Below are positions 9,329-24,714 of a stretch of DNA of 32,000 bases, piece by piece. Both the position numbers and the translations under genes were made by a program. Below the pieces are notes generated by a model. It did no database searches, was not told the DNA's origin, and saw only the letters and a program-made list of their open reading frames with translations. Where the stretch lies: NCBI RefSeq assembly GCF_029504745.1, contig NZ_JAQFIQ010000008.1:1-32000 (forward strand). Reading direction: 5' to 3'. This DNA is from Breznakia sp. PF5-3. GTDB lineage: Bacteria; Bacillota_I; Bacilli_A; Erysipelotrichales; Erysipelotrichaceae. Position 1 is the first letter of the stretch. Every line of letters begins with the position of its first letter.

Positions 9329-9335
9329 AATCCAC

Positions 9336-11219: not shown

Positions 11220-11242
11220 CGTAGTGTCCTCCCTATTCTTAA

Positions 11243-11257: not shown

Positions 11258-11267
11258 TGTTCACCTA

Positions 11268-11528: not shown

Positions 11529-11530
11529 TT

Positions 11531-12783: not shown

Positions 12784-12931
12784 AATTCCCTCCATATACC
12801 TCATAAGTATACATAAGATAAGCATAAAAAACAAAACCTATTTTTCATTTATATATCTTTATGTTGCAAATGAATTCTTAATAAAATATAATTACAAAGG
12901 CGAATGTATATATTTTGGAGGGAGTTTTTTT

Positions 12932-13732
12932 ATGGAAGCATATATTATTTTTCTTATGCTAATATCTATATTAGCTGGCTTTCTTGCTCATAGTAAAGGA
13001 AGAAGTTTTCTCGGCTGGTGTTTATTAGGATTAATTATCAATCCTATTATTGTCTGTATTATTCTAGCGTTCCTTTCTAGTCGTAAAGATTATGAAGTTA
13101 AAGTCTATTCTTATGTTGCAAATGCGAAAGAGGGAATTGATGTAAATTCACCAATATGTTTAGAAAGCTGTTCCTTATTTACAAACAATGAACATGATCG
13201 TACTGGTTTGATTTTAAATATTCGTAATTTGAGTGATCGTGTTATCACTGCTGTTGATTTTATTTGTGAAGGTTATAGTTCAAGTGATTCTAAATTAACA
13301 TTTAATATAGAAGGAGATTATATTATCAAACTTGATAATATATCTATAGATCCTTATAGTACGTATTCAAATGATCGTACTTCTATTATTGAGTTACTGG
13401 ATCCATCCATTGCTCGTATTACCCTTACCGTTCATGAAATCACATTTGATGATGGTTCTATTTTTATCAATGAACCTTGTATTGAAAAAGTTAAAGAAGA
13501 TGAAATACCATCTTATGCAATTGCACTAGCAAGGAAACATGTTAATAATGCCAGAGTCTTTGGTGAAGATCATGAGCACTATTGGATTTGCCCTTGTGGT
13601 GGAGTAAACTTAAAAAATACACATATCTGTTATCGCTGTAAAAAAGAGAAGGACGAAACATTTAAAGTGATGACAAGAGATAATTTTAGACCTATTTGGA
13701 GACTTGCAAAAGAGCAAGGTGAAACCAAATAA
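12932..13732 (+). CDS. hypothetical membrane protein with C-terminal zinc-ribbon
   Basis: RBS GGAGGGAG. Two N-terminal TM helices (ILAGFLAHSKGRSFLGWCLLGLIINPIIVCIILAF) are followed by a ~150-aa soluble region and CPCGG-x10-CYRC (a 4-Cys ribbon). Confidence 0.7.
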   Translation: MEAYIIFLMLISILAGFLAHSKGRSFLGWCLLGLIINPIIVCIILAFLSSRKDYEVKVYSYVANAKEGIDVNSPICLESCSLFTNNEHDRTGLILNIRNLSDRVITAVDFICEGYSSSDSKLTFNIEGDYIIKLDNISIDPYSTYSNDRTSIIELLDPSIARITLTVHEITFDDGSIFINEPCIEKVKEDEIPSYAIALARKHVNNARVFGEDHEHYWICPCGGVNLKNTHICYRCKKEKDETFKVMTRDNFRPIWRLAKEQGETK

Positions 13733-13801: not shown

Positions 13802-14461
13802 CTATCCTTTTAAAATAATCTTTAAAATATCTTCTGGTGTTCTAGCGATATAAGTTGCTCCATTTGCTACTAACTCATCTTCTTCACGAAATCCCCATAG
13901 TACACCAACACTATCCATGCTTGCATTGTTTGCGGTTTGAATATCGGTTTTAGAATCACCAATATAAAGAATTTCATCGGATTTAAATTCCATGAGATTC
14001 CTTAATTCCAATGCACTTGTTGGGTCTGGTTTTTTAGGAATTCCTTGGCGTTCACCAAAGCATTCAACAAAACAAATATTAGGAAAATGCTTTTGAATCA
14101 ATGCGTTCGTATAGTCAGTACGTTTATTTGAGTTAACAGCAACTTTAATATGGTTTTCTTGAAGTGTAGATAATACTTTATCAATGCCTTCATAGGGCTT
14201 TGTTTCTTTCATAAAATCTTGGTCATAGATTTTTAAAAACATTTGTAACCCTGCTTCTACCTTACTTGCTTCTGTATCTTCTGGCATGCTTCTACAAATT
14301 AAATCTTTGAAGCCTCTACCGATTTTCTTTTTATACGTTGCTTTATCATGGATTGGATAATTATAGGTTTCCAATACTTTATTTACACTGTTTGATAAAT
14401 CACTTAAGGTATCTAGTAAAGTGCCATCCAAATCAAAAATTACTCCTTTATAGTTATTCAT
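13802..14461 (-). CDS. HAD-superfamily phosphatase (phosphoglycolate phosphatase/PpaX-like subfamily IA)
   Basis: Motif I is VIFDLDGTLLDT, with a later SNK and GDSKTD (motifs III/IV). Start set to the ATG at 14461, with GAGGA 8 nt upstream. ATGAATAA overlaps the dhaL stop by 8 nt. Confidence 0.8.
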   Translation of the reverse strand: MNNYKGVIFDLDGTLLDTLSDLSNSVNKVLETYNYPIHDKATYKKKIGRGFKDLICRSMPEDTEASKVEAGLQMFLKIYDQDFMKETKPYEGIDKVLSTLQENHIKVAVNSNKRTDYTNALIQKHFPNICFVECFGERQGIPKKPDPTSALELRNLMEFKSDEILYIGDSKTDIQTANNASMDSVGVLWGFREEDELVANGATYIARTPEDILKIILKG

Positions 14462-15098
14462 TGATAATATCCTCACACATTGATGAAGCCATCGTTTTCA
14501 AAATGATACAACAAGATGTTGCCCCTGCATCCAAAAAGCCTTTGCTACGTTCCCCCAAGCGAGCTGCACGACCAATCTTTGCTACTAGATTTTTCGTGTT
14601 TTCCTTACCCGCTTCAGCTCCATCTAGCAATGCTTTCAAACATTCTTTAAATGATTTCTCTTGTTTTAATGCTTCCTTATAACTTTCTGTTGCTGGGTAT
14701 AATGTATCAAGCAATGTCTTGTCTCCTACTTTTGCACCTGCTAAATCCATCAGTCCTTGGATTGCGTTATTTAAAGCTTCTAACACTGCTTCTTTTGTGA
14801 TTTGGTCTTGTTTTTTCAAACTTCTACTTAAGCGTGAGAACATTGTTCCATAGATAGGACCCATACTTCCACCAATATCCATTACCAATGTTCTTCCTAA
14901 TACCTTTAAACTCTCTGAAAAATCCATATCTTCTTGGATTCTCTCTTTTGCCAACATAAATCCTTTATCCATGTTCACTCCATGATCCCCGTCTCCAGTC
15001 GCTCCATCTATCTCACTTAGATATGCTGCATTCTCATGGATTGCTTCTATGATCGCTAAGGTTATCTTGGCATTCTTTTGATTTGCTACATATTCCAT
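14454..15098 (-). CDS. dhaL: dihydroxyacetone kinase, L (nucleotide-binding) subunit
   Basis: 214 aa with the DhaL signature DGATGDGDHGVNM and an all-helical profile. It starts 3 nt after dhaK. Confidence 0.9.
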   Translation of the reverse strand: MEYVANQKNAKITLAIIEAIHENAAYLSEIDGATGDGDHGVNMDKGFMLAKERIQEDMDFSESLKVLGRTLVMDIGGSMGPIYGTMFSRLSRSLKKQDQITKEAVLEALNNAIQGLMDLAGAKVGDKTLLDTLYPATESYKEALKQEKSFKECLKALLDGAEAGKENTKNLVAKIGRAARLGERSKGFLDAGATSCCIILKTMASSMCEDIINE

Positions 15099-15101
15099 TG
15101 G

Positions 15102-16109
15102 CTATCTCCTAATCTGGGTCATCCCCATTGTCTCTACCTCTTCGTCCATACACTCTTTTAACTCTTCATCTACCTTCATCATCGTCAAGGTTACCCCATT
15201 CATCTCCAATGATGTAAAGTAATTTCCTACATAGGATTTATATATCTTTATTCCTAGCTCATCTAGATTCTTAGCTACTTCATCAAAGAAGATATATTGT
15301 TCCATCACTGGTGTTGCTCCTAATCCAGATATCAACACCACCACTTCATCACCTTCCACATATGGAATATCATTTACTACCAAGCTTGTCATCTCATCAG
15401 CGATTTCTTTTGCACTCGCCAACGATTCTACGCGTATTCCCGGCTCTCCATGATGTCCAATCCCAAACTCCATTGTTCCTTCTGCGATAGAAAAGTTAGG
15501 TTTTCCATTTGCAGGAATTGTACAAGGTCCTAACCCTACTCCTACACTGCGGGTATTATCCATTGCTTTTTGAGCTGCAGCAATCACTTCCTCTAATGTT
15601 GCTCCTTGATTTGCTTTTGCTCCTCCTACTTTCCACATCAAGATTTCTCCTGCGACACCTCTTCGCTTTTGCATCTCTGTTTTTGGCGCACTTGCTACAT
15701 CATCATTCGCCACTACCGTCTTCACTTCAATATCATCGTCTTCTGCCAATTCCATCGCCATCTTCACATTCATGTTATCTCCTGCATAGTTTCCATACAG
15801 GCAGGCAACACCCATCCCTTGATCTACAGCGCGGATACAATCGTAAAAAGATTTCGCTGTTGGTGAAGAGAAGATTTCTCCAACCGCTACTGCATCTACC
15901 ATATTTTTTCCACAATAGCCTATAAAGGCTGGCTTATGTCCACTTCCTCCACCAGTCACAATCCCTACTTTCTTTTTATCTTTCGCAAAGTTTGAGATTA
16001 CAACCCTTGGATTCTCTTCATCGATGTGAATGATATCTTTATGACATCGCTCAAAGCCTTTCAGCATATCTTCTACTACTAAACTGGGATCATTTATAAT
16101 TCTTTGCAT
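15102..16109 (-). CDS. dhaK: dihydroxyacetone kinase, K (substrate-binding) subunit
   Basis: 335 aa. Motifs: TGGGSGHKPAFIGYCGKNMVDAVAVGEIFSSP and GIGHHGEPG (substrate-binding His region). Confidence 0.9.
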   Translation of the reverse strand: MQRIINDPSLVVEDMLKGFERCHKDIIHIDEENPRVVISNFAKDKKKVGIVTGGGSGHKPAFIGYCGKNMVDAVAVGEIFSSPTAKSFYDCIRAVDQGMGVACLYGNYAGDNMNVKMAMELAEDDDIEVKTVVANDDVASAPKTEMQKRRGVAGEILMWKVGGAKANQGATLEEVIAAAQKAMDNTRSVGVGLGPCTIPANGKPNFSIAEGTMEFGIGHHGEPGIRVESLASAKEIADEMTSLVVNDIPYVEGDEVVVLISGLGATPVMEQYIFFDEVAKNLDELGIKIYKSYVGNYFTSLEMNGVTLTMMKVDEELKECMDEEVETMGMTQIRR

Positions 16110-16119
16110 ATCGTTCCTC

Positions 16120-16578
16120 CTATTTTGTATATTGTGCTTCTATCTCCATGATCCGTTCTACCTTTGGTGTACTTTTGCCACCAGCAAATTCACACTCTAG
16201 CCACGTATCGATAAGAAGTTGTGCATATTGTGGAGCAATCACTCTTGCTCCCATACACAATACCTGACAGTTATTACTTTTGATGCTTCTTTCCAATGAG
16301 AACATATCATGACATACCGCTGCTCGAATACCTGGAATTTTATTGGCTGTAATTGCCATGCCAATACCTGTTCCACATAAGAGAATACCACGTTCGTGAC
16401 TACCATCTAAGATATTGTTACACAAGGTTTGTGCTATATCTGGATAGGATGATGGATGCTCATCATAAACACCTATATCTTTTACTTCTTCGCCTTTTTT
16501 TATAAGGTATTGTTTTATTTGTTCTTTTAATTTATATGCTGCTTCATCACAGCCGATTACAATTTTCATCTTTACCAC
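16120..16578 (-). CDS. RpiB/LacA/LacB-family sugar-phosphate isomerase (divergent)
   Basis: 152 aa. IVIGCDEAAY and LLCGTGIGMAITANKIPGIRAA retain the family Cys motif. Several residues I recall as conserved in E. coli RpiB are replaced (see findings). Confidence 0.8.
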   Translation of the reverse strand: MVKMKIVIGCDEAAYKLKEQIKQYLIKKGEEVKDIGVYDEHPSSYPDIAQTLCNNILDGSHERGILLCGTGIGMAITANKIPGIRAAVCHDMFSLERSIKSNNCQVLCMGARVIAPQYAQLLIDTWLECEFAGGKSTPKVERIMEIEAQYTK

Positions 16579-16595
16579 CCACTTTCTTAAATAAT

Positions 16596-16625
16596 AAAGA
16601 GTGAGGTATCACAACCACACTCTTT
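16596..16625 (-). other. intra-operon RNA hairpin between the bicupin and rpiB-family genes
   Basis: AAAGAGTG, a 14-nt loop, then CACTCTTT (perfect 8 bp). It lies in the only sizeable gap (57 nt) of the operon. On the minus strand it is followed by ATTATTT, not a clean U-tract. Confidence 0.45.
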
Positions 16626-16635
16626 ATATAATTTC

Positions 16636-17550
16636 TTATAGTTCAGTAATTGCGAAAACTACTTTAATTGGTTTTGCTTCAAAGTTCACTAACTGATATT
16701 TCACCCCGGCTGGAATAAAGAATGTATCTTCTGGTTCTAATACATAACTCTCTTCCAATTCCGATAAATTCACCGTCACTGGCCCATCAACACAATATAG
16801 TGCTGCATCTCCTGCATGTGAATCTGGATCGGAGCATCGTGGTCCATATCCTCCAGCTGGCAAGATAAATTCACCAAAGTGTCCATAATCATTACTTGTT
16901 ATAAAGCGCATCAACATTGGGTGCTTTACCCCATGCACATTATTTAGTTTTTCAAAATCACGAACTGCATATACGGCTCCAGTTTCTCTTGCTTCCTTTG
17001 GATCTACTGGCCATGATCCAATATCATCTGTACATCCTTGTCGAGAAATATCTTTGATTTTATCTTTCATGTTTGGAAGATTATCATTGTTTGGTCCTTT
17101 ATAGAACTTTGTTTCTTCCTCACTAGGAATAACTGCTGGAGGAATTTCTTCACTCCAAGCCTTTGGTGTAATAAAATATAGAATTCTCGCTTTTTGATCT
17201 GAGAAGTTATGACAACAATGCCATGCACCTTCTGGCATAAACAAACCTTCTCCTGTTTCCAAATAGGCAAATTGTCCATTCCCACTACGTTGAACAACTG
17301 GCCCATTCAAAATGTAATACGATTCATCTCCTGGATGAACATCCAATGGTGCAAATACACCTCCAGGTCCCAATTCATAAATACCAAGCATAAAGGTATC
17401 TGTTGTTACCATCGTAAAGGTATTATCTGATGTAAATGCATTGTTGGGTGGATAAAGAGCCGTTGAATACTCACTTTTCTTTATCAACATTGGTTTTTTA
17501 TCTTCCTTTGAAAACGGGAAGTTTTCTAATATATCTACTAATTTAGCCAT
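16636..17550 (-). CDS. bicupin protein of unknown function
   Basis: 304 aa with two cupin-like halves: LDVHPGDESYYILNG...MPEGAWHCCHN and PDSHAGDAALYCVDG...FIPAGVKYQLVN. RBS AAAGGAGAA. Confidence 0.75.
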   Translation of the reverse strand: MAKLVDILENFPFSKEDKKPMLIKKSEYSTALYPPNNAFTSDNTFTMVTTDTFMLGIYELGPGGVFAPLDVHPGDESYYILNGPVVQRSGNGQFAYLETGEGLFMPEGAWHCCHNFSDQKARILYFITPKAWSEEIPPAVIPSEEETKFYKGPNNDNLPNMKDKIKDISRQGCTDDIGSWPVDPKEARETGAVYAVRDFEKLNNVHGVKHPMLMRFITSNDYGHFGEFILPAGGYGPRCSDPDSHAGDAALYCVDGPVTVNLSELEESYVLEPEDTFFIPAGVKYQLVNFEAKPIKVVFAITEL

Positions 17551-17566
17551 GTTTTATTTCTCCTTT

Positions 17567-18601
17567 TTACTCAGCTAATTCTACTTCTTCATTTACTGGT
17601 TTTTTCAATAACACTAATAATCCTGCACTTACTGCTCCTGCAATTAATAATGCAACAATAAACATAATGGCATTATTCAATGCGAACAATACGAACAATC
17701 CACCATGAGGTGCTCTCATTGTTAATCCAAACACGTATGATAATGCACATCCTACAGCTGAACCTGCCATCAATGATGGAATTACTTTAATTGGATCTGC
17801 AGCTGCAAACGGAATTGCAAATTCGGTAATCATTCCAAATGCTCCAGCAAACAATCCAGGTACAGCAGCACGTTCTTCACTAGTAAATTTCTTTTTTGCG
17901 ATTAAACAAGCAATTGCAATTCCTAGTGGAGGTGCCATACTTCCAATGAAGTTTGCTGCCATTGGAGCAAAGTTTCCAGCTTCCATTGCTGCTAATGCAA
18001 ATGCATATGCAACCTTGTTACAAGGACCACCCATATCAAATGCAAGCATACATCCTTGAACGATTCCTAGTACTACTAAATTTCCTGTACCGAGTGAATT
18101 CAACATATCTGTCAATGCTGTTGTAAGCATTGAAATAGGTTCACCAATTACATAAACCATGATTAAACCAATGGCACCAACTCCTAAAATAGGAATAATC
18201 AAAGTTGGTAATAAGGAACGTAATTGTGCAGGCAATGCAATTTTCTTCAATAGATTTACAATATACCCTGCAACAATCCCCGCAATAAGCCCACCAAGGA
18301 AACCTGATCCTTGTACATCAGCCAATGCTCCACCAACCATTCCTGGTGCCAACCCAGGTTTATCAGCAATTGAGTAAGCAACATATGCACCAAGTACTGG
18401 TACCATAAGTGCAAATGCTTGTTTTCCTAACCAGAAAACAGTGGATGGGAAGTTTCCATATTGTTCAACTGTATTGGGAATATCATAACCACCGATGGCA
18501 AAACCAATCGCGATCATAACACCACCAGCAATAACAAATGGCAACATGTACGATACACCTGTTAATAATGCACTTTTGATTTCATTTAATTGTTCTTTCA
18601 T
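17567..18601 (-). CDS. PTS fructose-family EIIC permease
   Basis: About 344 aa, Gly/Ala-rich and polytopic, with the length and profile of stand-alone Fru-family IIC. Start moved to the ATG at 18601 (AAGGTGAG upstream). It follows EIIA and EIIB. Confidence 0.85.
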   Translation of the reverse strand: MKEQLNEIKSALLTGVSYMLPFVIAGGVMIAIGFAIGGYDIPNTVEQYGNFPSTVFWLGKQAFALMVPVLGAYVAYSIADKPGLAPGMVGGALADVQGSGFLGGLIAGIVAGYIVNLLKKIALPAQLRSLLPTLIIPILGVGAIGLIMVYVIGEPISMLTTALTDMLNSLGTGNLVVLGIVQGCMLAFDMGGPCNKVAYAFALAAMEAGNFAPMAANFIGSMAPPLGIAIACLIAKKKFTSEERAAVPGLFAGAFGMITEFAIPFAAADPIKVIPSLMAGSAVGCALSYVFGLTMRAPHGGLFVLFALNNAIMFIVALLIAGAVSAGLLVLLKKPVNEEVELAE

Positions 18602-18630
18602 TTTTCTCACCTTTTTCTCTCTTTATATTT

Positions 18631-18927
18631 CTAATCTTCGAATATAATCTTAGGGTTTTGGATGACTGCATGAGGTGTCAATTTCTTAATCTTATCTTTG
18701 TATGCATCAAAGCGTTCTGCTTTTGAGACTCCTACATCATTAGCAAAGATAATCATATCTGCTTCTTTGATATCCTTATCTTTTAATTTGTTTTCTATAC
18801 CTAACGCTCCTTGCATTTCAACCTTGCAATCATACCCTTTTTCTTTACAGATTTTTTTAATGGCTTCTGCTGCCATATATGTATGTGCAATTCCTGTCGC
18901 ACAAGATGTAATTGCTACTACTTTCAT
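18631..18927 (-). CDS. PTS fructose-family EIIB
   Basis: 98 aa. The N-terminal MKVVAITSCATGIAHTYMAAEA carries the phospho-Cys loop typical of IIB(Fru). Confidence 0.85.
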   Translation of the reverse strand: MKVVAITSCATGIAHTYMAAEAIKKICKEKGYDCKVEMQGALGIENKLKDKDIKEADMIIFANDVGVSKAERFDAYKDKIKKLTPHAVIQNPKIIFED

Positions 18928-18937
18928 AAGCTCACCT

Positions 18938-19411
18938 CTAATTTTCGTATTTCTGAATCATTTCCATTACTTCTTCATAACTCTTACCATGTTCTAAGAT
19001 ATCAATGAATTCCTCATGCGTAAGTAAACCTGCTAACTTTGCAAGTACTCGCATATAGTGATCTGCTCCTTGATCCATTGAAATAGCCAACATGAAGACA
19101 TATTTTACTTCACCGCTTTCACCAAAACTGTTATATATAAACGGTTCTTTGCAACGGCAAAACCCAATTCCTGGTTTTTTAACTGCTTCACATTTCCCAT
19201 GCGGTAAACCAATTAAATTTCCCATAAAAGTTGAACCAATGGCTTCACGTTCTTCTAATGAAACGATGTATTTAGCTTCATCATCAATGATTCCTGCTTC
19301 CTTAAATTTCGATGCCATAAAAGCAAACATTTCTTCTTTTGAATGAAATGGTTCATGATCCAAAACGAAGGCTTCTTTTACTAATACATCGGCTAAATTA
19401 ACTTTTTCCAT
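18938..19411 (-). CDS. PTS EIIA, fructose/mannitol (EIIA_2) type
   Basis: 157 aa. NLIGLPHGK carries the active-site His, and the length and pattern are those of PTS_EIIA_2. Confidence 0.8.
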   Translation of the reverse strand: MEKVNLADVLVKEAFVLDHEPFHSKEEMFAFMASKFKEAGIIDDEAKYIVSLEEREAIGSTFMGNLIGLPHGKCEAVKKPGIGFCRCKEPFIYNSFGESGEVKYVFMLAISMDQGADHYMRVLAKLAGLLTHEEFIDILEHGKSYEEVMEMIQKYEN

Positions 19412-19413
19412 AA

Positions 19414-20286
19414 TTATTTCCCGTTTTTAAATACTGTTAGAACTTCTCTTGCATACTCTCTCATAAAACGATATGCACTTTCTTGAACTTCATGCCAGTA
19501 AGCACTTCCTTGTGTTTTATCCAATTCTTCATAGATATGTTTCGCTGCTGCTTTTGCCATGTATGAGTAATAGTTAATCTTTGAACAACCAGCACTGATT
19601 GCTGCTTGTACTTGATCACTATCTACCCCACTACCACCATGCATTACAATACGTGTTTCTTTTGGCATTTTTTTACGCATTTCTTTTACTCTTTCAATAT
19701 CAAGAATTGGTGGTTCTGAATAAATTCCATGGGCTGTACCAAAGCATACTGCTAATGCATCAACACCTGTATCTCTAGCAAACTCTGCTGCTTGTTCAGG
19801 ATCTGTAAAGGTAATTTTAATGGATTCATTATCCCATACCGTATCATCTCCATGGGTATCATCTTCTGTTGATGTCATGATTCCAAGTTCAGCTTCAACC
19901 GTAATATCTAAAGCATGTGCAAGCTTGGTAAATGCTTTTAATTTTGCTTTGTTTTCTTCAAATGGCAATGCACTTAAATCATACATAATGGAAGAAAATC
20001 CACAGCGAATCGCACGCATTACAAAGTTATAATCACTACCATGATCCAAATGTACACAAACTGGTACTTTCGCTTTTTTTGCGTATTCTACCATCTTTGG
20101 TCCAATCTCTTCAATTGGAATTAGTGGATCGTGCACTTGTGCGTGGTCAATAATAATTGGTACATTTAAATCCTCAGCTGCACCAATAACAGCACGAAGC
20201 GTTTCAACGTTTGGCGTATTAATACAGCCAATCGCATACCCACCCTTTTCTGCTTCTTCTAAAATCTGTTTCATGTTTACTAACAT
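19414..20286 (-). CDS. class II ketose-(bis)phosphate aldolase (FBA/GatY/KbaY/IolJ family)
   Basis: 290 aa. Motifs: VHLDHG, VEAELG, FGTAHG, MHGGSG (zinc and catalytic motifs of the PF01116-type family). RBS AGGAGGAAAA. Confidence 0.85.
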   Translation of the reverse strand: MLVNMKQILEEAEKGGYAIGCINTPNVETLRAVIGAAEDLNVPIIIDHAQVHDPLIPIEEIGPKMVEYAKKAKVPVCVHLDHGSDYNFVMRAIRCGFSSIMYDLSALPFEENKAKLKAFTKLAHALDITVEAELGIMTSTEDDTHGDDTVWDNESIKITFTDPEQAAEFARDTGVDALAVCFGTAHGIYSEPPILDIERVKEMRKKMPKETRIVMHGGSGVDSDQVQAAISAGCSKINYYSYMAKAAAKHIYEELDKTQGSAYWHEVQESAYRFMREYAREVLTVFKNGK

Positions 20287-20307
20287 AATTATTTTCCTCC
20301 TGTTGTA

Positions 20308-21171
20308 TTATTCTATTTCCATAGCAATCTTTTTCAGGTTTGCTAATCCTTGAACTGCTAGATCTTCTCCCGTATCTGCAAACTTTCGCCATATCGCACA
20401 ATTCGCATTCAACTCTTCAAAACTTGGATCAAAACTTTCTATTACACATGGTCCTTCATATCCTACTTTTTTTAGGGCAATAAAGAATTCCTTAAACGGT
20501 ACTAACCCCGTTCCTGGTATCCCTCGATTACTCTCACATACATGCACATACCCTAAATACTCTTTCCCACATGTCTCTACTGCTCTTGTATAACTTGTCT
20601 CTTCTCGTATCATGTGGAAACAATCTAAATGTACTGCCATATTTCCAGTTCCTACATCTTTGCAATACTTCACTCCATCTTCTGCTGTATTGATGAAATG
20701 TGTCTCAAATCGATTTACTGGTTCCACACAAATTTTTAGCTTTGGATGTTTCTTTAAAGCATATTCTCCAACTTCTCGCATCGCTTCTACCGAATCTTTC
20801 CACTCTCGTTCCGTTTTAGGTTTTCCACTCAAACATCCCCATCCGGCATAATTTACTCCACCTAGAATATTTGAACCCAACGCTAGATTGATATCTACTA
20901 ATTTCTTTAGACTATCAATTCCCTTACGACGAATTGCAGCATCTTCCGATATTAAATTCGTATCTGCTCCTAGGGTGGTTGTCGTTACTACTTCTAGATT
21001 GGTTTTTTCCAATTCTGCTTTTACCTTTTCCGTTGGAAAGGTAAATGGATGAGCGATTGCTATATCAATCGTTTCAAACCCTAATGCTTCTGCTTTTGGA
21101 ATGATCCATAAGTCCTTCTCACTAAAAACTTCACTCCAGATAAACGAGTCTACTCCAAATCTAATCTTCAT
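20308..21171 (-). CDS. ketose 3-epimerase-family TIM-barrel enzyme (D-psicose/D-tagatose 3-epimerase-like)
   Basis: Start moved to the ATG at 21171 (MKIRFGVDSFIW, with AAAGGAGAG upstream). The block EPVNRFETHFINTAEDGVKYCKDVGTGNMAVHLDCFHM...GYVHVCESNRGIPGTG parallels the E/D/H/E metal-site blocks of DTE/DPE enzymes as I recall them. Confidence 0.75.
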   Translation of the reverse strand: MKIRFGVDSFIWSEVFSEKDLWIIPKAEALGFETIDIAIAHPFTFPTEKVKAELEKTNLEVVTTTTLGADTNLISEDAAIRRKGIDSLKKLVDINLALGSNILGGVNYAGWGCLSGKPKTEREWKDSVEAMREVGEYALKKHPKLKICVEPVNRFETHFINTAEDGVKYCKDVGTGNMAVHLDCFHMIREETSYTRAVETCGKEYLGYVHVCESNRGIPGTGLVPFKEFFIALKKVGYEGPCVIESFDPSFEELNANCAIWRKFADTGEDLAVQGLANLKKIAMEIE

Positions 21172-21441
21172 TTCTCTCTCCTTTCTATACAGGAAGTTTT
21201 GGTAGCGCTTCCTTTCTAATTTTATGATAAACAAAACAACCTATAAAAATCCAATCGCTTAAGTCTTTGTTTTGCACTAGGTCTAGTTCATAATTAAACT
21301 AATTGCTTTTCACCCTTTATTTATCAGCTTTTTTTAAATATCAAAAAAACAAAAAAGAAGCAGCTCGTTGCAAAAAAATATTTTTTAAACAATAATGTTG
21401 TTTCGTTTTTTTGATTAATCTTAGTAAATCTGTCTTTTCGA

Positions 21442-21651: not shown

Positions 21652-22704
21652 ATGTTTCGTAACACAGAAAAAAAAGACCTTCCCATGATTCACACTTTGT
21701 GGAAAGATATCTTTCAAGACCAAGATGACTATCTTGATTATTATTTTAAACATAAATATAATACGGATTTTTCTTATTTGATTGAGGAAAATGATACCAT
21801 TGTATCCAGTTTACAAGTTCATCCATATACCTATCGGTTGATGGATGAAAACTTACGATTTGGTTATTTTCATGCCATTATGACAAACAAAGAACAACGT
21901 AATCAAGGGTTAATGAAAGAACTATTAGGATGTACCTTTCGTGATCTTTACAATAAAGAAATTATCTTAGGAGGGTTGGTTCCTTCTTCTACTTCTTTAT
22001 TTTCATTATATGAAAAGTATGGATTTGTTTCTTGCTTTTCAACTTGGGAAAAATATTATAAAAAACAACCAACGACGAAGGTTGTTTCTTTACACGTATA
22101 TGAAGATTCTATGTTTGATGATATATATACGTATTATGAAATAATGATGAAGCCATCTTCTAATCTTCTTTGTAAGACGAAAGACGATTTTAAAATTATG
22201 GTTGATGAACACCTTCTTAACGGTGGTGTCATCCATTATGGATTGGATATAGACAATGTTTGTGGAATTGTTTTTATCGATACTAAAAAAGAACTTCATG
22301 TTCGTGAAATGTTTGTATCTACTACTTTATATATTCCCCTGTTAAATGCTGTATTGCAGCACTATGCACTTACTAAAATCTTAGTAAAAAGTGCACTTCC
22401 AACTATGGATAGTATACAAAAAGCGTATGGTATGGCTAGAATTTTAAATGTTTATGAAGTTCTTTCTATGCTTGCTAGAAAAAATCTTGAATTAAAACTA
22501 ACCTTATCCATCCAAGATGATTACCTTTATCAAAATACAGGGGTCTTCTCTCTTTGTGATGGAGATTGCGAAAAAATTTCAAATAGTACAAATGAAGATA
22601 CCATAAGCATTGGTGAATTAACCAAACGCTTATTGCTTGGAGGTAATTTAAAAGATATCAACATCGTCTCAAGCATTCCTTACATGGGAATGTTAATGGA
22701 CTAA
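21652..22704 (+). CDS. GNAT-family N-acetyltransferase, Eis-like three-domain architecture
   Basis: 350 aa. The acetyl-CoA motif A-like segment is FHAIMTNKEQRNQGLMKELL. The C-terminal ARILNV...LKLTLSIQDDYLYQNTGVFSL resembles the SCP2-like tail of Eis-type enzymes. RBS AAAGGAGAG. Confidence 0.7.
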   Translation: MFRNTEKKDLPMIHTLWKDIFQDQDDYLDYYFKHKYNTDFSYLIEENDTIVSSLQVHPYTYRLMDENLRFGYFHAIMTNKEQRNQGLMKELLGCTFRDLYNKEIILGGLVPSSTSLFSLYEKYGFVSCFSTWEKYYKKQPTTKVVSLHVYEDSMFDDIYTYYEIMMKPSSNLLCKTKDDFKIMVDEHLLNGGVIHYGLDIDNVCGIVFIDTKKELHVREMFVSTTLYIPLLNAVLQHYALTKILVKSALPTMDSIQKAYGMARILNVYEVLSMLARKNLELKLTLSIQDDYLYQNTGVFSLCDGDCEKISNSTNEDTISIGELTKRLLLGGNLKDINIVSSIPYMGMLMD

Positions 22705-22713: not shown

Positions 22714-22745
22714 TAAAAAAATTATTCTTAGTGAATAATTTTTTT
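22714..22745. terminator. bidirectional terminator between the GNAT and PRD-regulator genes
   Basis: AAAAAAATTATTC-ttagt-GAATAATTTTTTT is perfectly symmetric. The stem is AT-rich. Confidence 0.6.
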
Positions 22746-24714
22746 ATACTTCTCTTAAAACAATACCACTATCATCTACTGCTTTTAAGATACTAGTTAT
22801 ACTTTTCGCATCACGTATAGAAGCTACGCGTTCATGATCATCAATCAATTCATAAAACTGTGAGAAGAAACTATAAATTTCACCCTGAGTTTCAAAGTCG
22901 ATAGCAATAACAAACACAATATCCACCTTATCATCTTCCGTCCAATTTATAGGACGCTCCAATTTAATTACTGCAACACCACTCTTTATCACATGAGTTC
23001 GATATCCATGGGGAATCGCTATGCCATTTCCAATGGACGTAGGTGTTATATTCTCACGTTGCAGAATCTTTTCTTCAAAGCCTTCACTTACAAAACCTTG
23101 TTCCATCAAAAGCTTACATCCTTTTTCAATTACATCTTCTTTTCGTTTTGCATTATATTTAGGAATAATCAAAGACTCTGAGAATAAATGATAATCTTTC
23201 ACAATAATCTCTTGCTTTTCCGCTTGAATTTCTTTTACTCGCTTTTCAATCAAAGCAAAATCTGGTGTTCCTACACGTCTTGATATTTTCAAAACATTAT
23301 CAAAAGGAACAGGGGTTGTCGTAATGATTAAATCATACTTTTCAGGATTTACTTCATTGATATTTTCACTATATACAACTTTCGATATATTGATATTATC
23401 AATACTACGTTTAATTTTATTCTCAATGTATTTAGAGGTATTATAATCGTATGATGTAATTAATAACGTTTTTAAATCATAGATGGTATCTTCCATTGCA
23501 TTATCAATTAACATTACAAAATAAGCAATGTCATTTTCGGTAAATTTCACATTTAGTTTGTTTTCAATTGGTAAAATATTTGCTAATACAATTCCATATA
23601 AACTAGGTAATTGTTTTTTTATATCACGACGGAAATAATTTCCTGTAATCATCTGATAGCTTTGTTGCATTTTCTTTTTTTGAAAAAAGAGACCGATATC
23701 ACTGATTAAACCTTCATTGATAAATAGTGTTTTATTTGCAATGATGTTTTTTAATCGTTCTACAAACTGACGAGCAATTTCATCATAATATTCTTCTTTG
23801 ATAAGACTGGTAGCTACATCATAAGAACCATGCAATACAAATTGAGCAGCCATACAACGAACTTCGATTGATAAATATGCTTGGACATCATCAATAGCGA
23901 TATCAAATAGCTTTTTTGCAGCAGTATAATCGCGGTTGGTGATTTTACAATTATTTAAAATGTTTTTTTCTAAAATGATATTTCCATCTTTCACCCGCAT
24001 CAAAGAGACACTGATATATTCTAATAATTGAACAAAAGAAACATCATCATAGACAAAATCGGTATCTTTTTCTACTTGTTGGAGTAATTTTTGAATTTCG
24101 ATAATATCCACTTTGGGATATACTTCTTTAAAGTAATTGTAATTTCGTTGGTCTATTCGATAATCTAAGATTTCATCAGGTCGTAAATATTTTAGTTGTA
24201 TATCTTCTAAACGAACACTGTTGTTGTACATCATCGCTTGGCGAATATGAAACTCACCACCTTCAATACATACACCTTTATTTCTTACTTTGATAATTTT
24301 TAAATCAAAGTACTGTAACCATTTTTCAATTACTTCTAAATCTCGAAGAATGATATTTCTACCCACTCCAAGGTCATCCGCAAAAATTTGAATTGTATAA
24401 TTGGAGTTGTGTTTAAATAAAATATCTAAGATATAATTTTTTCGATATGCGAAAGAATACGACTTATCATGATTCTGATTGATGAGTTCTGATAGCTTTT
24501 GTTTTTCAAATACTTCCCCTTCGATCCAAAACCCTTTTCCTGGAACCGAGTTTAAAACTGCTCCACTTGTTTGAATCGTTTTTCGTACATAATCCATATT
24601 GTGTTTTATACTACTTATCGACATTCCAATCTCTGTAGCAATCATCTTTGAAGTGATTGGTTGATCACTTTTTAATAAAACACGAATGGTCTTTTCTGTT
24701 AATACATCAATCAT
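22744..24714 (-). CDS. PRD-containing PTS-controlled transcriptional activator (MtlR/LicR/ManR type)
   Basis: About 656 aa with N-terminal HTH regions and central PRD-length segments. The C-terminal EIIA_2-like domain carries GNGIAIPHG. Start moved to the ATG at 24714 because GGAGGA lies 5 nt upstream; the track used the GTG at 24726. Confidence 0.8.
   Translation of the reverse strand: MIDVLTEKTIRVLLKSDQPITSKMIATEIGMSISSIKHNMDYVRKTIQTSGAVLNSVPGKGFWIEGEVFEKQKLSELINQNHDKSYSFAYRKNYILDILFKHNSNYTIQIFADDLGVGRNIILRDLEVIEKWLQYFDLKIIKVRNKGVCIEGGEFHIRQAMMYNNSVRLEDIQLKYLRPDEILDYRIDQRNYNYFKEVYPKVDIIEIQKLLQQVEKDTDFVYDDVSFVQLLEYISVSLMRVKDGNIILEKNILNNCKITNRDYTAAKKLFDIAIDDVQAYLSIEVRCMAAQFVLHGSYDVATSLIKEEYYDEIARQFVERLKNIIANKTLFINEGLISDIGLFFQKKKMQQSYQMITGNYFRRDIKKQLPSLYGIVLANILPIENKLNVKFTENDIAYFVMLIDNAMEDTIYDLKTLLITSYDYNTSKYIENKIKRSIDNINISKVVYSENINEVNPEKYDLIITTTPVPFDNVLKISRRVGTPDFALIEKRVKEIQAEKQEIIVKDYHLFSESLIIPKYNAKRKEDVIEKGCKLLMEQGFVSEGFEEKILQRENITPTSIGNGIAIPHGYRTHVIKSGVAVIKLERPINWTEDDKVDIVFVIAIDFETQGEIYSFFSQFYELIDDHERVASIRDAKSITSILKAVDDSGIVLREV

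What the first reader, a model, noticed from the sequence alone, without database searches (positions are those of the whole stretch)
13802..21171. Ten-gene PTS operon whose enzyme set does not match a textbook sugar pathway (aldolase + DhaKL triokinase logic, no second sugar kinase)
Seen in the sequence:
- Ten co-directional genes have junctions of -8 to +57 nt, each with its own SD.
- The order is ketose 3-epimerase family, class II (FBA/GatY/IolJ-type) aldolase, EIIA, EIIB, EIIC (fructose family), bicupin, RpiB/LacAB family, DhaK, DhaL, HAD phosphatase.
- The operon contains no PfkB/1-phosphofructokinase/tagatose-6-P kinase, no dehydrogenase and no DhaM.

Established knowledge:
- A PTS delivers a sugar monophosphate.
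- The known fructose, tagatose, galactitol and sorbose routes add a second phosphate or a redox step before aldol cleavage.
- FBA-family class II aldolases can cleave monophosphates to DHAP plus a free aldehyde (IolJ).
- DhaK-family kinases phosphorylate DHA, D-glyceraldehyde (animal triokinase) and erythruloses.
- RpiB-family and TIM-barrel isomerases act on tetrulose phosphates in erythritol/threitol pathways.
- A Listeria DhaKLM operon linked to pentose-phosphate paralogues, including an rpiB, has been described.

Inference:
- The operon may encode a fructolysis-like route for a rare ketose such as an allulose/tagatose/sorbose-type hexulose. The steps would be PTS to ketose monophosphate, optional C3 epimerisation/isomerisation, aldol cleavage to DHAP plus unphosphorylated triose, and rescue of the triose by DhaKL.
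- Alternatively it may be a tetrulose-type pathway.
- Either would be an uncharacterised combination.
Basis: partly seen in the sequence, partly recalled or inferred. Interest (0 to 1): 0.7.

Follow-up and report, generated by a model that had tools for sequence, protein, structure and literature searches.

The report
Uncharacterised PTS–aldolase–bicupin sugar operon
This is a real ten-gene sugar-uptake and breakdown operon, conserved in more than 70 bacterial species including the abundant human gut bacterium Anaerostipes hadrus, that fits no described pathway and most likely splits an unidentified sugar into a three-carbon phosphate plus a free four-carbon sugar that it then salvages.

Summary
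Ten co-directional genes on the minus strand (21171 to 13802) have the stated families, order and junctions. No PfkB kinase, dehydrogenase or DhaM lies anywhere in the 32 kb window. The host is a Breznakia species (Erysipelotrichaceae).

The gene set recurs around an unannotated, very conserved bicupin in 73 species of Bacillota, Actinomycetota and Chloroflexota. The core is a fructose-family PTS, an aldolase and the bicupin. A linked module holds a Dak kinase, a divergent RpiB, and either a ketose 3-epimerase homologue or a TIM paralogue, never both.

The TIM paralogue is 39-47% identical to solved L-erythrulose-1-phosphate isomerase and shares its signature motifs. The DhaK tree splits by the same partner. 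The epimerase keeps the residues that bind a free C1 hydroxyl. The RpiB lacks the canonical ribose-5-phosphate contacts.

The fragment is more likely a tetrose or erythrulose than a triose, so the substrate is probably a heptulose. The substrate and the bicupin's reaction remain unknown. I found no publication describing this operon.

The parts
22744..24714 (-). Transcriptional activator with HTH (Mga/HTH_11), PRD and EIIA-2 domains; the probable regulator of the operon
   Evidence: Pfam domains. A homologue lies next to the cluster in 45 of 75 loci and is directly adjacent in B. pachnodae and A. hadrus. It is 32% identical to the A. hadrus regulator.
21219..21247 (-). Candidate sigma-70-type promoter (TTTATA, 17 nt spacer, TAAAAT), 48 nt upstream of the first start codon
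   Evidence: Consensus scan only. Promoter-like sites are not enriched over shuffles, so this is weak.
20308..21171 (-). EPI: ketose 3-epimerase homologue (xylose-isomerase-like TIM barrel), 287 aa
   Evidence: AP_endonuc_2. D-psicose 3-epimerase model 164.9 bits against a cut-off of 300. Closest PDB relative is an L-ribulose 3-epimerase. All four metal ligands and the three O1/O2-binding residues are invariant in 35 orthologues. The roles of these residues are given in PMC8167858.
19414..20286 (-). ALD: class II FBA-family aldolase, 290 aa
   Evidence: F_bP_aldolase 269 bits, below every NCBIfam equivalog cut-off. The HLDH, GTAHG, HGGSG and KIN motifs are present. The C-terminal segment is YdjI-like rather than FBA/GatY-like. 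Present in 52 of 73 species loci, and replaced by a class I DhnA-type aldolase in 8 more.
18938..19411 (-). PTS EIIA (fructose/mannitol type), 157 aa
   Evidence: PTS_EIIA_2 109 bits. The fruA IIA domain model scores 94.5 against a cut-off of 103.5.
18631..18927 (-). PTS EIIB (fructose type), 98 aa
   Evidence: TIGR00829 FRU 93.5 bits, above the cut-off of 76.85.
17567..18601 (-). PTS EIIC (fructose family), 344 aa
   Evidence: TIGR01427 330.5 bits, above the cut-off of 157.55. Found next to the bicupin in 56 of 73 species loci.
16636..17550 (-). CUP: orphan bicupin, 304 aa; the signature gene of the system
   Evidence: Two Cupin_2 stretches. AlphaFold2 pLDDT 90.4. Foldseek returns only generic bicupins at TM about 0.6 and at most 17% identity. 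No informative PDB or NCBIfam relative. It is 87% identical to the A. hadrus protein against 47-75% for its neighbours. The N-terminal cupin motif is complete, with D70, H72, E76 and H111 invariant.
16120..16569 (-). RpiB-family sugar-phosphate isomerase with a divergent active site, 149 aa
   Evidence: LacAB_rpiB 170.6 bits. D-erythrulose-4-phosphate isomerase model 152 bits, below the cut-off of 240. Cys65 and Thr67 are kept. GCDEAAY / KSNN / GGKSTPKV replace the GxDHxG / (E,Q,S)HN / GGRHxxR of solved RpiBs.
15102..16109 (-). DhaK (Dak1) substrate-binding kinase subunit, 335 aa
   Evidence: Dak1 384 bits. Best NCBIfam match is the fused Dak family NF011049. The PTS-type DhaK equivalog scores 364.5, below its cut-off of 406.25. 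The GGGSGH, NYAGD and HGEPG motifs are conserved. It falls in the EPI-linked clade of the DhaK tree.
14454..15098 (-). DhaL (Dak2) nucleotide-binding kinase subunit, 214 aa
   Evidence: Dak2 173 bits. TIGR02365 171.4 bits, above the cut-off of 138.3.
13802..14461 (-). HAD-IA phosphatase, 219 aa; role unknown
   Evidence: HAD_2 118 bits. Phosphoglycolate-phosphatase-like, 139.8 bits, below the cut-off of 225. Present in only 23 of 75 loci; a Cof-type HAD is present in 10.

Best explanation
The operon catabolises a sugar that has not yet been identified. Proposed route:
1. The fructose-family PTS imports a 2-ketose and phosphorylates it at C1 (inferred from the family).
2. The class II aldolase cleaves this monophosphate into DHAP and an unphosphorylated aldose (inferred).
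3. That aldose is a tetrose, not a triose. The bicupin and/or the epimerase homologue convert it to free erythrulose and equilibrate the D and L forms (inferred).
4. DhaKL phosphorylates D-erythrulose to D-erythrulose-4-phosphate (inferred).
5. The divergent RpiB homologue converts that to erythrose-4-phosphate for the pentose-phosphate pathway (inferred).

Sister operons reach the same intermediate differently. They use a second kinase clade plus an L-erythrulose-1-phosphate isomerase-type TIM paralogue.

C3 plus C4 implies a seven-carbon ketose as substrate, such as sedoheptulose, mannoheptulose or perseulose. This last step is speculation. The HAD phosphatase has no assigned step.

What is shown here: the families, the conservation, the co-occurrence, the alternation of partners, and the residue patterns. 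None of the reactions has been shown.
For: - The same gene set recurs around the bicupin in 73 species loci: EIIC 56, aldolase 60 (class II 52, class I 8), any Dak 53. In all 75 bicupin-bearing loci clustered, RpiB is present in 48.
- The aldolase and bicupin are the adjacent core, found even in minimal clusters and in ABC-transporter/FGGY-kinase variants.
- Non-orthologous replacement of the class II aldolase by a DhnA-type class I aldolase marks aldol cleavage as an essential step.
- The aldolase keeps its catalytic and DHAP-phosphate motifs but has a YdjI-like distal segment.
- Dak and RpiB are linked: 40 of 53 loci with Dak against 3 of 20 without, p about 6e-6.
- EPI and the TIM paralogue never co-occur: 0 loci with both, 29 with EPI only, 14 with TIM only, p about 8e-7.
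- DhaK domains split into an EPI-linked and a TIM-linked clade, whether the kinase is split or fused and in whichever phylum.
- The TIM paralogue is 47% (Pelolinea) and 39% (Lachnospiraceae) identical to solved L-erythrulose-1-phosphate isomerase (PDB 11ef). It shares IGE/TNGxPA, SVNP and GLFxxRxAW/F where canonical TIM has IGTGxxA and GGASL.
- EPI keeps the residues that bind free O1. TM0416, of the same fold family, isomerises D-erythrose and D-threose to D-erythrulose (PMC8167858).
- The RpiB homologue lacks the His and Arg contacts of ribose-5-phosphate isomerases.
- A Dak-family kinase with a TIM-family and an RpiB-family isomerase is the published erythrulose-to-erythrose-4-phosphate route (PMC5992420; PMC10733421).
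- A 42%-identical bicupin homologue sits in a C4 acid-sugar cluster (DUF1537 kinase, PdxA-like, class II aldolase-like) at the place where a ketol isomerase is expected.
Against: - No experiment bears on any step.
- The bicupin has no informative relative, so its role as an aldose-ketose isomerase is a guess.
- The argument about the aldolase's distal site rests on a reference sequence and a residue role recalled from memory.
- The co-occurrence statistics are not corrected for phylogeny, and the DhaK tree is neighbour-joining without bootstrap.
- The window operon has the EPI variant, for which the erythrulose assignment is indirect. It rests on mutual exclusion with the LerI-like gene, not on homology to a characterised erythrulose enzyme.
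- Four TIM-type loci lack RpiB within 10 kb.
- No transketolase or transaldolase gene is linked, unlike in the Listeria operon.
- Free heptuloses are minor nutrients, and no PTS for them is known.
- The HAD phosphatase is unexplained.
- The closest solved DhaK is a PTS-dependent one, so the phosphoryl donor is unsettled.
Confidence: 0.38

Rival explanations
1. A rare ketohexose (allulose, tagatose or sorbose type) is phosphorylated at C1 by the PTS and, if needed, epimerised. It is then cleaved to DHAP plus D- or L-glyceraldehyde. DhaKL acts as a triokinase, possibly after the bicupin isomerises glyceraldehyde to DHA.
For: - The families and the absence of a second sugar kinase fit.
- The aldolase looks like a monophosphate type.
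- EPI's best family matches are hexulose 3-epimerases.
- Minimal clusters with only PTS, aldolase and bicupin could feed a housekeeping DHA kinase.
Against: - It gives no role to the RpiB homologue, which is linked to the kinase and has a non-canonical active site.
- It does not explain why EPI alternates with an L-erythrulose-1-phosphate isomerase-like protein or why the kinase clades follow that split.
- EPI keeps the residues that bind a free O1, so it is unlikely to act on a 1-phosphate. DHA has no stereocentre to epimerise.
Confidence: 0.15
2. The imported substrate is itself a C4 compound: erythrulose, a tetrose, or (in the polyol-PTS variants) a tetritol. PTS or Dak phosphorylation, followed by EPI or the LerI-like isomerase and the RpiB-like isomerase, gives erythrose-4-phosphate. 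The aldolase, with the HAD phosphatase, then either condenses erythrose-4-phosphate with DHAP to a sedoheptulose phosphate (a transaldolase bypass) or cleaves erythrulose-1-phosphate to DHAP plus formaldehyde.
For: - The LerI-like, RpiB-like and Dak genes match the published tetritol module.
- Some loci carry a mannitol-type PTS with a Zn-dependent dehydrogenase or a Gfo/Idh/MocA oxidoreductase instead of, or beside, the fructose-type PTS.
- Erythrulose-1-phosphate cleavage has been suggested for erythritol catabolism in Propionibacterium (PMC10733421). Propionibacteriales carry the bicupin.
- It would give the HAD phosphatase a role.
Against: - If the PTS already makes erythrulose-1-phosphate, a separate kinase for free erythrulose is redundant. 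Yet Dak is present in 53 of 73 loci.
- The aldolase lacks the FBA-type distal segment expected for a bisphosphate such as sedoheptulose-1,7-bisphosphate.
- The two most conserved partners, aldolase and bicupin, are left with peripheral or undefined roles although they form the core.
- Formaldehyde release is costly for strict anaerobes, and no detoxification genes are linked.
Confidence: 0.2
3. A tagatose-6-phosphate-like route. The PTS makes an aldose 6-phosphate and the RpiB/LacAB-family enzyme isomerises it to a ketose 6-phosphate. DhaKL is the missing second kinase and phosphorylates C1 next to the carbonyl. The aldolase then cleaves the bisphosphate to DHAP plus glyceraldehyde-3-phosphate.
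For: - It follows the same order of chemistry as LacABCD (established knowledge).
- The Dak mechanism phosphorylates a hydroxymethyl group next to a carbonyl.
- It would explain the RpiB-Dak linkage.
- EPI's free-O1 head-group site would accept a ketose 6-phosphate.
Against: - The TIM paralogue is LerI-like, not a plain triose-phosphate isomerase.
- The aldolase lacks the bisphosphate-type distal segment.
- The RpiB homologue has lost the His that solved RpiB and LacB enzymes carry at the position assigned to opening ring-form substrates. That role is recalled from established knowledge; the residues are.
- No Dak is known to accept a sugar phosphate.
- Minimal PTS-aldolase-bicupin clusters have no kinase.
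Confidence: 0.07
4. Two unrelated modules merely lie side by side. One is a PTS-aldolase-bicupin unit for one sugar. The other is a separate Dak-RpiB-EPI unit for free erythrulose or DHA taken up by another route.
For: - The two gene groups occur apart in some genomes: minimal clusters, and Dak-TIM placed divergently from ALD-CUP.
- Gene order is reshuffled between lineages.
Against: - In the window and in A. hadrus all the genes form one tightly spaced co-directional unit, with junctions of -8 to +66 nt in the window.
- Dak lies within 10 kb of the bicupin in 53 of 73 species across three phyla, despite rearrangement.
- No separate transporter for a second substrate is present in the operon.
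Confidence: 0.08

Closest known systems
Tetritol/erythrulose pathways: M. smegmatis LerK/DerK-LerI-DerI, Brucella EryC-EryH-EryI, and the Yarrowia EYK1 cluster
   Same: They use a Dak-family kinase, an RpiB-family isomerase, and either a TIM-family L-erythrulose-1-phosphate isomerase or a xylose-isomerase-fold epimerase. Together these lead to erythrose-4-phosphate. The TIM paralogue of sister operons is 39-47% identical to solved LerI and shares its motifs.
   Different: Those pathways start from a polyol, using a dehydrogenase with an ABC or other transporter. They have no PTS, no class II aldolase and no bicupin. In the window the partner is a free-ketose 3-epimerase homologue, not a characterised EryC, and no activity has been tested.
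Animal fructolysis (ketohexokinase, aldolase B, triokinase)
   Same: The logic is the same: ketose 1-phosphate, aldol cleavage to DHAP plus an unphosphorylated aldehyde, and rescue by a Dak-family kinase.
   Different: Here the first phosphorylation is by a PTS and the aldolase is class II. The rescued fragment is probably C4, needing further isomerases. The bicupin has no counterpart.
Listeria monocytogenes DhaKLM-2 operon linked to pentose-phosphate paralogues
   Same: DhaK/DhaL sit together with an rpiB and a tpi paralogue in one sugar-related operon of a Bacillota member. The TIM paralogue found here scores best against the same non-canonical NCBIfam TIM models.
   Different: The Listeria operon carries dhaM, transketolase, transaldolase and a dehydrogenase. 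It lacks the PTS EIIABC, the class II aldolase, the bicupin and the epimerase.
E. coli YdjI and B. subtilis IolJ (FBA-family class II aldolases acting on monophosphates) and IolB (a cupin isomerase upstream of IolJ)
   Same: They are FBA-family aldolases that release DHAP from a monophosphorylated ketose. The window aldolase aligns with YdjI over nearly its full length and shares the aromatic-His C-terminal segment. The inositol pathway also pairs a cupin isomerase with such an aldolase (established knowledge).
   Different: Their substrates carry a terminal carboxylate, and their kinases are PfkB-type. Identity to YdjI is modest (144.9 bits). The bicupin is unrelated to the KduI/IolB Pfam family.
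Tagatose-6-phosphate (LacABCD) and galactitol (GatYZ) pathways
   Same: They combine a PTS entry, an RpiB/LacAB-family isomerase and a GatY/KbaY-like aldolase. The best PDB matches of the aldolase are KbaY and a ketose-bisphosphate aldolase.
   Different: Those routes need a PfkB second kinase and cleave bisphosphates. No such kinase is present here, and the aldolase departs from GatY/KbaY after residue 255.

Membership tests
Fructose-family PTS (EIIA/EIIB/EIIC) | Subfamily-domain models for the fructose-type EIIC, EIIB and EIIA reach their curated cut-offs | tested here: met
   EIIC TIGR01427 scores 330.5 against a cut-off of 157.55. EIIB TIGR00829 scores 93.5 against 76.85. EIIA TIGR00848 scores 94.5, just below its cut-off of 103.5, but Pfam PTS_EIIA_2 scores 109 against 27.
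Fructose-family PTS (EIIA/EIIB/EIIC) | Substrate identity and the carbon that is phosphorylated | not testable with these tools
   No equivalog model is reached. This needs a transport or phosphorylation assay.
Class II fructose/tagatose-bisphosphate aldolase (FBA/GatY/KbaY) | Fold and catalytic motifs (Zn-binding His residues, catalytic Asp, DHAP-phosphate loop) | tested here: met
   PF01116 scores 269 bits. HLDH, GTAHG, HGGSG and KIN are aligned with KbaY, AgaY and YdjI.
Class II fructose/tagatose-bisphosphate aldolase (FBA/GatY/KbaY) | Curated equivalog score for FBP, TBP or ketose-bisphosphate aldolase | tested here: not met
   The best score is 229.7 against a cut-off of 423. All 20 listed models are below their cut-offs; TIGR00167 is closest at 214.8 against 215.6.
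Class II fructose/tagatose-bisphosphate aldolase (FBA/GatY/KbaY) | Distal (second) phosphate site: the C-terminal ...DPR(K)Y... segment of B. subtilis-type FBA | tested here: not met
   The segment is replaced by a conserved (Y/W)HE(L/V) in all eight orthologues aligned, resembling YdjI's FLHLE. Caveat: the FBA reference sequence and the role of its Arg are from memory.
Ketose 3-epimerase (D-psicose / D-tagatose / L-ribulose 3-epimerase) | Four metal ligands including the two catalytic Glu, plus the Glu/His/Arg that bind O1/O2 of the free ketose | tested here: met
The residue roles are confirmed in PMC8167858.
Ketose 3-epimerase (D-psicose / D-tagatose / L-ribulose 3-epimerase) | Curated equivalog score for D-psicose 3-epimerase | tested here: not met
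   164.9 bits against a cut-off of 300. The distal pocket residues also differ: Y6 to D, W14 to F/Y, I66 to T, A107 to V.
Ribose-5-phosphate isomerase B | Family models and the catalytic Cys/Thr | tested here: met
   TIGR01120 scores 145.6 against a cut-off of 138.65, and NF004051 scores 173.9 against 135. Cys65 and Thr67 are conserved.
Ribose-5-phosphate isomerase B | Canonical substrate contacts: His10, His99, Arg133-His134 and Arg137 (E. coli numbering) | tested here: not met
   The window protein has GCDEAAY, KSNN and GGKSTPKV. The solved RpiBs of C. thermocellum, E. coli and T. maritima have GxDHxG, (E,Q,S)HN and GGRHxxR. The same substitutions occur in A. hadrus and Pelolinea.
[quoted passage not shown] | Curated equivalog score | tested here: not met
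   NF051858 scores 152.1 bits against a cut-off of 240. That model is built from Rhizobiales sequences. Activity is not testable here.
PTS-dependent dihydroxyacetone kinase DhaKLM | DhaK with the hemiaminal His and catalytic Asp, and DhaL with a Dak2 domain | tested here: met
   GGGSGH, NYAGD and HGEPG are aligned with L. lactis and E. coli DhaK. The DhaL model TIGR02365 scores 171.4 against a cut-off of 138.3.
PTS-dependent dihydroxyacetone kinase DhaKLM | A DhaM phosphoryl-donor subunit, and a DhaK equivalog score | tested here: not met
   No EIIA-mannose-type protein was found among the scanned window ORFs. TIGR02363 scores 364.5 against a cut-off of 406.25. The best model is the fused Dak family NF011049. 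Orthologous loci carry fused 586-aa Daks. The rest of the genome was not searched.
Erythrulose-to-erythrose-4-phosphate module (LerK/DerK, LerI, DerI) | Co-occurrence of a Dak-family kinase, an RpiB-family isomerase and a LerI-type TIM paralogue | tested here: inconclusive
   This is met in 10 sister loci, where the TIM paralogue is 39-47% identical to PDB 11ef and has the shared motifs. The window itself has EPI instead of the LerI-type gene. The link rests on strict mutual exclusion and on the kinase clades.
Bicupin superfamily | Two cupin barrels, at least one with a complete metal-binding motif | tested here: met
   Two Cupin_2 stretches. AlphaFold2 pLDDT 90.4 with two beta-barrels. Foldseek gives probability 1.0 to quercetinase, oxalate decarboxylase and BacB. 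The G-x5-D-x-H-x3-E-x6-G and G-x5-P-x-G-x2-H-x3-N motifs are invariant. No functional subfamily could be assigned.

The most novel reading that the evidence does not exclude
The operon encodes the first PTS-dependent pathway for a seven-carbon ketose. A monophosphate-specific class II aldolase yields DHAP plus a free tetrose. The orphan bicupin is a new type of free tetrose/tetrulose (ketol) isomerase. Two interchangeable solutions, a free-erythrulose 3-epimerase with a 4-kinase or a 1-kinase with a LerI-type isomerase, funnel the tetrulose to erythrose-4-phosphate. It would be a widespread trait of the human gut butyrate producer Anaerostipes hadrus.
Probability: 0.2. Interest if true: 0.8.

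Novelty: new variant of a known kind. Interest (0 to 1): 0.66.

Why it matters
- **Prevalence.** The signature bicupin belongs to a 90%-identity cluster of 2,237 sequences, indexed in about 35,000 blocks of the public assembly collection. Most come from Anaerostipes hadrus and related gut Lachnospiraceae. An abundant butyrate producer therefore carries a dedicated, regulated uptake and catabolic system whose substrate is unknown.
- **What finding the substrate would give.** It would add a nutrient niche, possibly a dietary rare sugar, heptulose or tetritol-related compound, to models of gut carbohydrate use.
- **New enzymes.** It would assign a function to a compact, very conserved orphan enzyme family. 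It would also extend Dak-family kinases, LerI-type isomerases and free-ketose 3-epimerases into PTS-linked metabolism of Bacillota.
- **Annotation.** Automatic labels in these operons (dihydroxyacetone kinase, ribose-5-phosphate isomerase B, triosephosphate isomerase, fructose-bisphosphate aldolase) are probably wrong in substrate.

Tried and rejected
- **Literature.** Ten full-text searches found no paper describing this operon or the bicupin family.
- **Riboflavin preprint.** A 2026 preprint on anaerobic riboflavin degradation by Lachnospiraceae looked promising, but its fin neighbourhood has different genes.
- **Bicupin function.** It could not be assigned by Pfam or NCBIfam, PDB sequence or profile search, or AlphaFold2 plus Foldseek. 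All returned only generic cupins.
- **Non-coding features.** Rfam found no riboswitch or other RNA. A cre-box pattern gave no site near the operon. The promoter and terminator scans were not above shuffled expectation.
- **Split transketolase.** I suspected that two recurrent 280-aa neighbours were split transketolase, which would have supported an erythrose-4-phosphate link. They are ABC permeases.
- **A single horizontal transfer.** I considered this as the reason for the bicupin's 87% identity across classes. The neighbouring genes are only 47-75% identical, so the bicupin itself is unusually constrained.
- **ATP versus PTS dependence of the kinase.** This could not be settled. The best NCBIfam model is the fused family, but the best solved relative is PTS-dependent.
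- **Lost sandbox.** The Python sandbox was lost, so a bootstrap tree and a family-wide aldolase alignment could not be made. A ten-sequence alignment was made instead.
- **Not obtained.** The Huang et al. 2015 threitol paper could not be retrieved by DOI. The sequence of Brucella EryI (probably PDB 5ifz) could not be displayed for comparison with the RpiB.

Full report
**Observation**

The window comes from a Breznakia species (Erysipelotrichaceae). The bicupin and four other operon proteins are exact matches to proteins of Breznakia sp. PF5-3, on contig JAQFIS010000015 of GCA_029504795.1.

Ten co-directional minus-strand genes occupy 13802-21171. Junctions are +21, +2, +10, +29, +16, +66 (or +57 with the alternative GTG start), +10, +3 and -8 nt. 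Purine-rich ribosome-binding motifs precede the starts.

- xylose-isomerase-fold ketose 3-epimerase homologue (EPI)
- class II FBA-family aldolase (ALD)
- fructose-type EIIA, EIIB and EIIC
- a protein with two cupin domains (CUP)
- RpiB/LacAB family
- DhaK
- DhaL
- HAD phosphatase

None of the other ORFs of at least 90 aa that were scanned in the 32 kb is a PfkB kinase, a dehydrogenase or a DhaM. A PRD/EIIA-type activator lies upstream at 22744-24714, separated here by a GNAT gene.

**Is it a real unit?**

Yes. The bicupin is 87% identical to a protein of Anaerostipes hadrus (Lachnospiraceae). It sits there in an operon with orthologues of all ten genes plus one extra Cof-type HAD, in a different order, directly behind the same kind of activator. 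The other nine proteins are 47-75% identical, so the bicupin is the outlier in conservation.

A scan of one genome per species returned 80 loci. They come from Erysipelotrichales, Lachnospirales, other Clostridia, Negativicutes, Bacilli, Coriobacteriia, Propionibacteriales, Anaerolineae and a planctomycete.

I clustered all ORFs within 10 kb of the bicupin. Among the 73 species loci with an intact bicupin:

| Neighbour | Loci |
|---|---|
| Fructose-type EIIC | 56 |
| Class II aldolase | 52 |
| Class I DhnA-type aldolase in its place | 8 |
| Dak kinase (split or fused) | 53 |
| EPI | 30 |
| TIM paralogue | 15 |

In all 75 bicupin-bearing loci clustered, the RpiB homologue is present in 48. Smaller numbers have dedicated EI and HPr genes, DeoR regulators, Gfo/Idh/MocA or Zn-dependent dehydrogenases, and a mannitol-type PTS.

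Seven loci replace the PTS by an ABC transporter plus an FGGY kinase and keep the adjacent aldolase-bicupin pair. The core is therefore uptake and phosphorylation, then aldolase and bicupin. The linked accessory module is Dak, RpiB, and either EPI or TIM.

**The bicupin**

It has no curated family. NCBIfam gives only weak partial matches to ureidoglycine aminohydrolase. The PDB has no informative sequence relative.

An AlphaFold2 model (pLDDT 90.4) matches only generic bicupins at TM about 0.6 and at most 17% identity: quercetinase YxaG, oxalate decarboxylase and BacB.

The N-terminal barrel has a complete metal motif, with D70, H72, E76 and H111 invariant. In the C-terminal barrel the second-motif His is replaced by Tyr.

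The family is compact. Only 54 clusters at 50% identity reach E of 1e-30 or better among 1.84 billion representatives.

Hints to its chemistry are indirect:
- A 42%-identical homologue lies in an actinobacterial cluster of C4 acid-sugar genes: a DUF1537 kinase, a PdxA-like dehydrogenase and a class II aldolase-like decarboxylase. From my knowledge of the threonate/erythronate pathways, a ketol isomerase is expected at that place.
- More remote homologues sit beside Gfo/Idh/MocA, Zn-ADH and SDR oxidoreductases, a GH95 glycosidase and a PfkB kinase.

These point to isomerisation of an unphosphorylated keto or aldo sugar. They prove nothing.

**The accessory module points to erythrulose**

Five independent lines converge.

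1. *Dak and RpiB travel together.* They co-occur in 40 of 53 loci with Dak, against 3 of 20 without.

2. *EPI and the TIM paralogue are strictly alternative.* Among Dak loci, 0 have both, 29 have EPI only and 14 have TIM only. A neighbour-joining tree of DhaK domains splits into an EPI-linked clade and a TIM-linked clade. The split holds whether the kinase is split or fused, and each clade spans more than one order or phylum. The window's kinase is in the EPI clade.

3. *The TIM paralogue is not an ordinary TIM.* Its second-best PDB match, tied with the best TIM, is L-erythrulose-1-phosphate isomerase (PDB 11ef).
   - The Pelolinea protein is 47% identical to it and the Lachnospiraceae protein 39%.
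   - They share IG(E/T)(N/S)GxPA in loop 6, SVNP, and GLF(I/T)(G/T)R(S/T/A)A(W/F) in loop 8. Canonical TIM has IGTGxxA and GGASL there.

4. *EPI probably binds a free C1 hydroxyl.* The EPI family keeps all four metal ligands. It also keeps the Glu, His and Arg that hydrogen-bond the free O1 and O2 of the ketose in its closest solved relative (PMC8167858).
   - It therefore probably acts on a sugar with a free C1 hydroxyl.
   - A free ketose with a C3 stereocentre must have at least four carbons.
   - The same paper reports that TM0416, of this fold family, isomerises D-erythrose and D-threose to D-erythrulose.

5. *The RpiB homologue has a non-canonical active site.* It keeps the catalytic Cys and Thr. 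It has lost the His10, His99, Arg133-His134 and Arg137 equivalents present in the solved RpiBs of C. thermocellum, E. coli and T. maritima. The same substitutions occur in A. hadrus and Pelolinea.
   - From established knowledge, the His99 equivalent is assigned to ring opening.
   - Erythrose-4-phosphate cannot form a furanose ring. The loss is thus consistent with an acyclic C4 substrate, but does not prove it.

The published erythrulose routes use these same families. They combine a Dak-family kinase (LerK makes L-erythrulose-1-P and D-erythrulose-4-P) with LerI/EryH of the TIM family, EryC as a 3-epimerase, and DerI/EryI of the RpiB family, ending in erythrose-4-phosphate (PMC5992420; PMC10733421).

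The alternation then has a simple reading. Either free erythrulose is epimerised and the D form is phosphorylated at C4, as in the EPI-type loci including the window. Or the L form is phosphorylated at C1 and moved to D-erythrulose-4-P by the LerI-type enzyme, as in the TIM-type loci.

**The upstream half**

A kinase for free erythrulose inside a PTS operon implies that a free C4 sugar arises inside the cell.

The aldolase keeps the Zn-binding, catalytic and DHAP-phosphate motifs. It is below every equivalog cut-off.

After residue 255 it departs from KbaY/AgaY and aligns instead with the monophosphate aldolase YdjI. A conserved YHEL replaces the ...DPRKY... of B. subtilis-type FBA. That reference sequence, and the role of its Arg in binding the distal phosphate, are from my memory.

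Replacement by a class I DhnA-type aldolase in Chloroflexota, Moorellaceae and Oceanobacillus shows that aldol cleavage to a DHAP-type fragment is the conserved function.

The most economical reading runs as follows: ketose 1-phosphate goes to DHAP plus a free aldose, and that aldose is a tetrose. The bicupin and/or EPI convert it to erythrulose. The substrate would then be a heptulose. This last inference is speculative. Free heptuloses are minor nutrients, and no PTS for them is known to me.

**Rivals**

It leaves RpiB, the LerI-like gene, the kinase clades and the free-O1 epimerase unexplained.
- *A C4 substrate taken up directly* fits the accessory module and the polyol-PTS variants. It makes the kinase redundant and marginalises the aldolase-bicupin core.
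- *A LacABCD-like bisphosphate route, with Dak as the second kinase,* conflicts with the aldolase's distal segment and with the LerI-like protein.
- *Mere juxtaposition of two modules* conflicts with the single tight operon and with linkage across three phyla.

**Open points**

- The phosphoryl donor of DhaKL is unsettled. There is no DhaM in the window, and fused, presumably ATP-dependent, orthologues exist in sister loci. The best NCBIfam model is the fused family, but the best solved relative is PTS-dependent.
- The HAD phosphatase has no assigned step.
- The statistics are not corrected for phylogeny, and the tree has no bootstrap, because the scripting machine was lost.

**Novelty and verdict**

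Every enzyme belongs to a known superfamily, and the downstream chemistry resembles known tetritol pathways.

I found no description of the combination with a PTS, a monophosphate-type class II aldolase and an orphan bicupin. Nor did I find one of the two interchangeable ways of handling erythrulose.

I rate it a new variant of a known kind. It is of good interest because it is very common in human gut metagenomes and is directly testable.

Noticed in passing
window 30386-31252 (-) and 31270-31968 (-): Two further class II FBA-family aldolase genes lie in tandem at the end of the window. The second is cut off by the window edge: its Pfam match starts at profile position 57. They are about 35% identical to the operon aldolase and probably belong to another sugar operon that continues beyond the window.
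   Followed up: partly
window 21652-22704 (+): An Eis-like GNAT acetyltransferase (Acetyltransf_9 plus an SCP2 domain) is inserted between the PRD activator and the operon in this strain. In Breznakia pachnodae (L009) the activator is directly adjacent to the first operon gene.
   Followed up: partly
window 7688-12238 (-): An apparent trehalose-type operon: a GntR/UTRA regulator (11531-12238), a PTS EIIBCA of the glucose family (9336-11264) and a GH13 alpha-amylase-family hydrolase (7688-9328).
   Followed up: no
window 16636-17550 compared with L005: The bicupin is 87% identical between Erysipelotrichales and Lachnospirales, while the nine other operon proteins are 47-75% identical. This degree of constraint on one enzyme is unexplained. 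It may reflect both barrels being functional or a protein partner.
   Followed up: partly
L087 879-5261: A 42%-identical bicupin homologue in an Actinomycetota MAG lies among C4 acid-sugar catabolic genes: a DUF1537 kinase, a PdxA-like dehydrogenase, a class II aldolase-like protein, a cyclase-family protein and a LacI regulator. No xylose-isomerase-fold isomerase is nearby.
   Followed up: partly
L089 2685-10597 and L090 6982-11841: Remote bicupin homologues (161-189 bits to the family profile) sit next to Gfo/Idh/MocA, Zn-ADH and SDR oxidoreductases. In L089 there is also a GH95 glycosidase, a PfkB kinase and an RPE-family epimerase. This suggests a wider family acting on free keto sugars.
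   Followed up: no
L015, L018, L020, L025, L066, L076 and others (clusters c12 and c14): Dedicated paralogues of the general PTS proteins are encoded inside the cluster: Enzyme I in 16 species and HPr in 12. In L025 and L066 they lie immediately before DhaK-DhaL. This may bear on the phosphoryl donor of the kinase.
   Followed up: no
L056-L060 (cluster c31), for example L058 484-1704: The ABC-transporter variants start with a 406-aa protein that has no Pfam or NCBIfam match. By eye it has cupin-like HxH and G..P.G..H motifs. It may be the aldose-ketose isomerase of that variant.
   Followed up: no
L058 11824-18594: Next to the aldolase-bicupin pair of this Lachnospiraceae MAG lie genes for an OMP-decarboxylase/HUMPS-family protein, an RPE-family epimerase, a SIS-domain protein, an AraD-like class II aldolase-fold protein and several FGGY kinases. 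The set resembles L-xylulose/3-keto-L-gulonate or ribulose-monophosphate genes.
   Followed up: no
window 26099-27983: A 335-aa protein with only a faint match to the mannose-6-phosphate isomerase cupin domain (26099-27106, -) lies divergent from a DeoR-family regulator (27150-27983, +). Its function is unknown.
   Followed up: no
window 107-1894, 5047-7002, 12301-13732: Five sizeable ORFs (150, 441, 651, 177 and 266 aa) have no Pfam match at E of 0.001 or better.
   Followed up: no
window 28018-29760 (-): A 580-aa protein with a Listeria-Bacteroides repeat domain and beta-propeller-like repeats, probably a surface protein.
   Followed up: no
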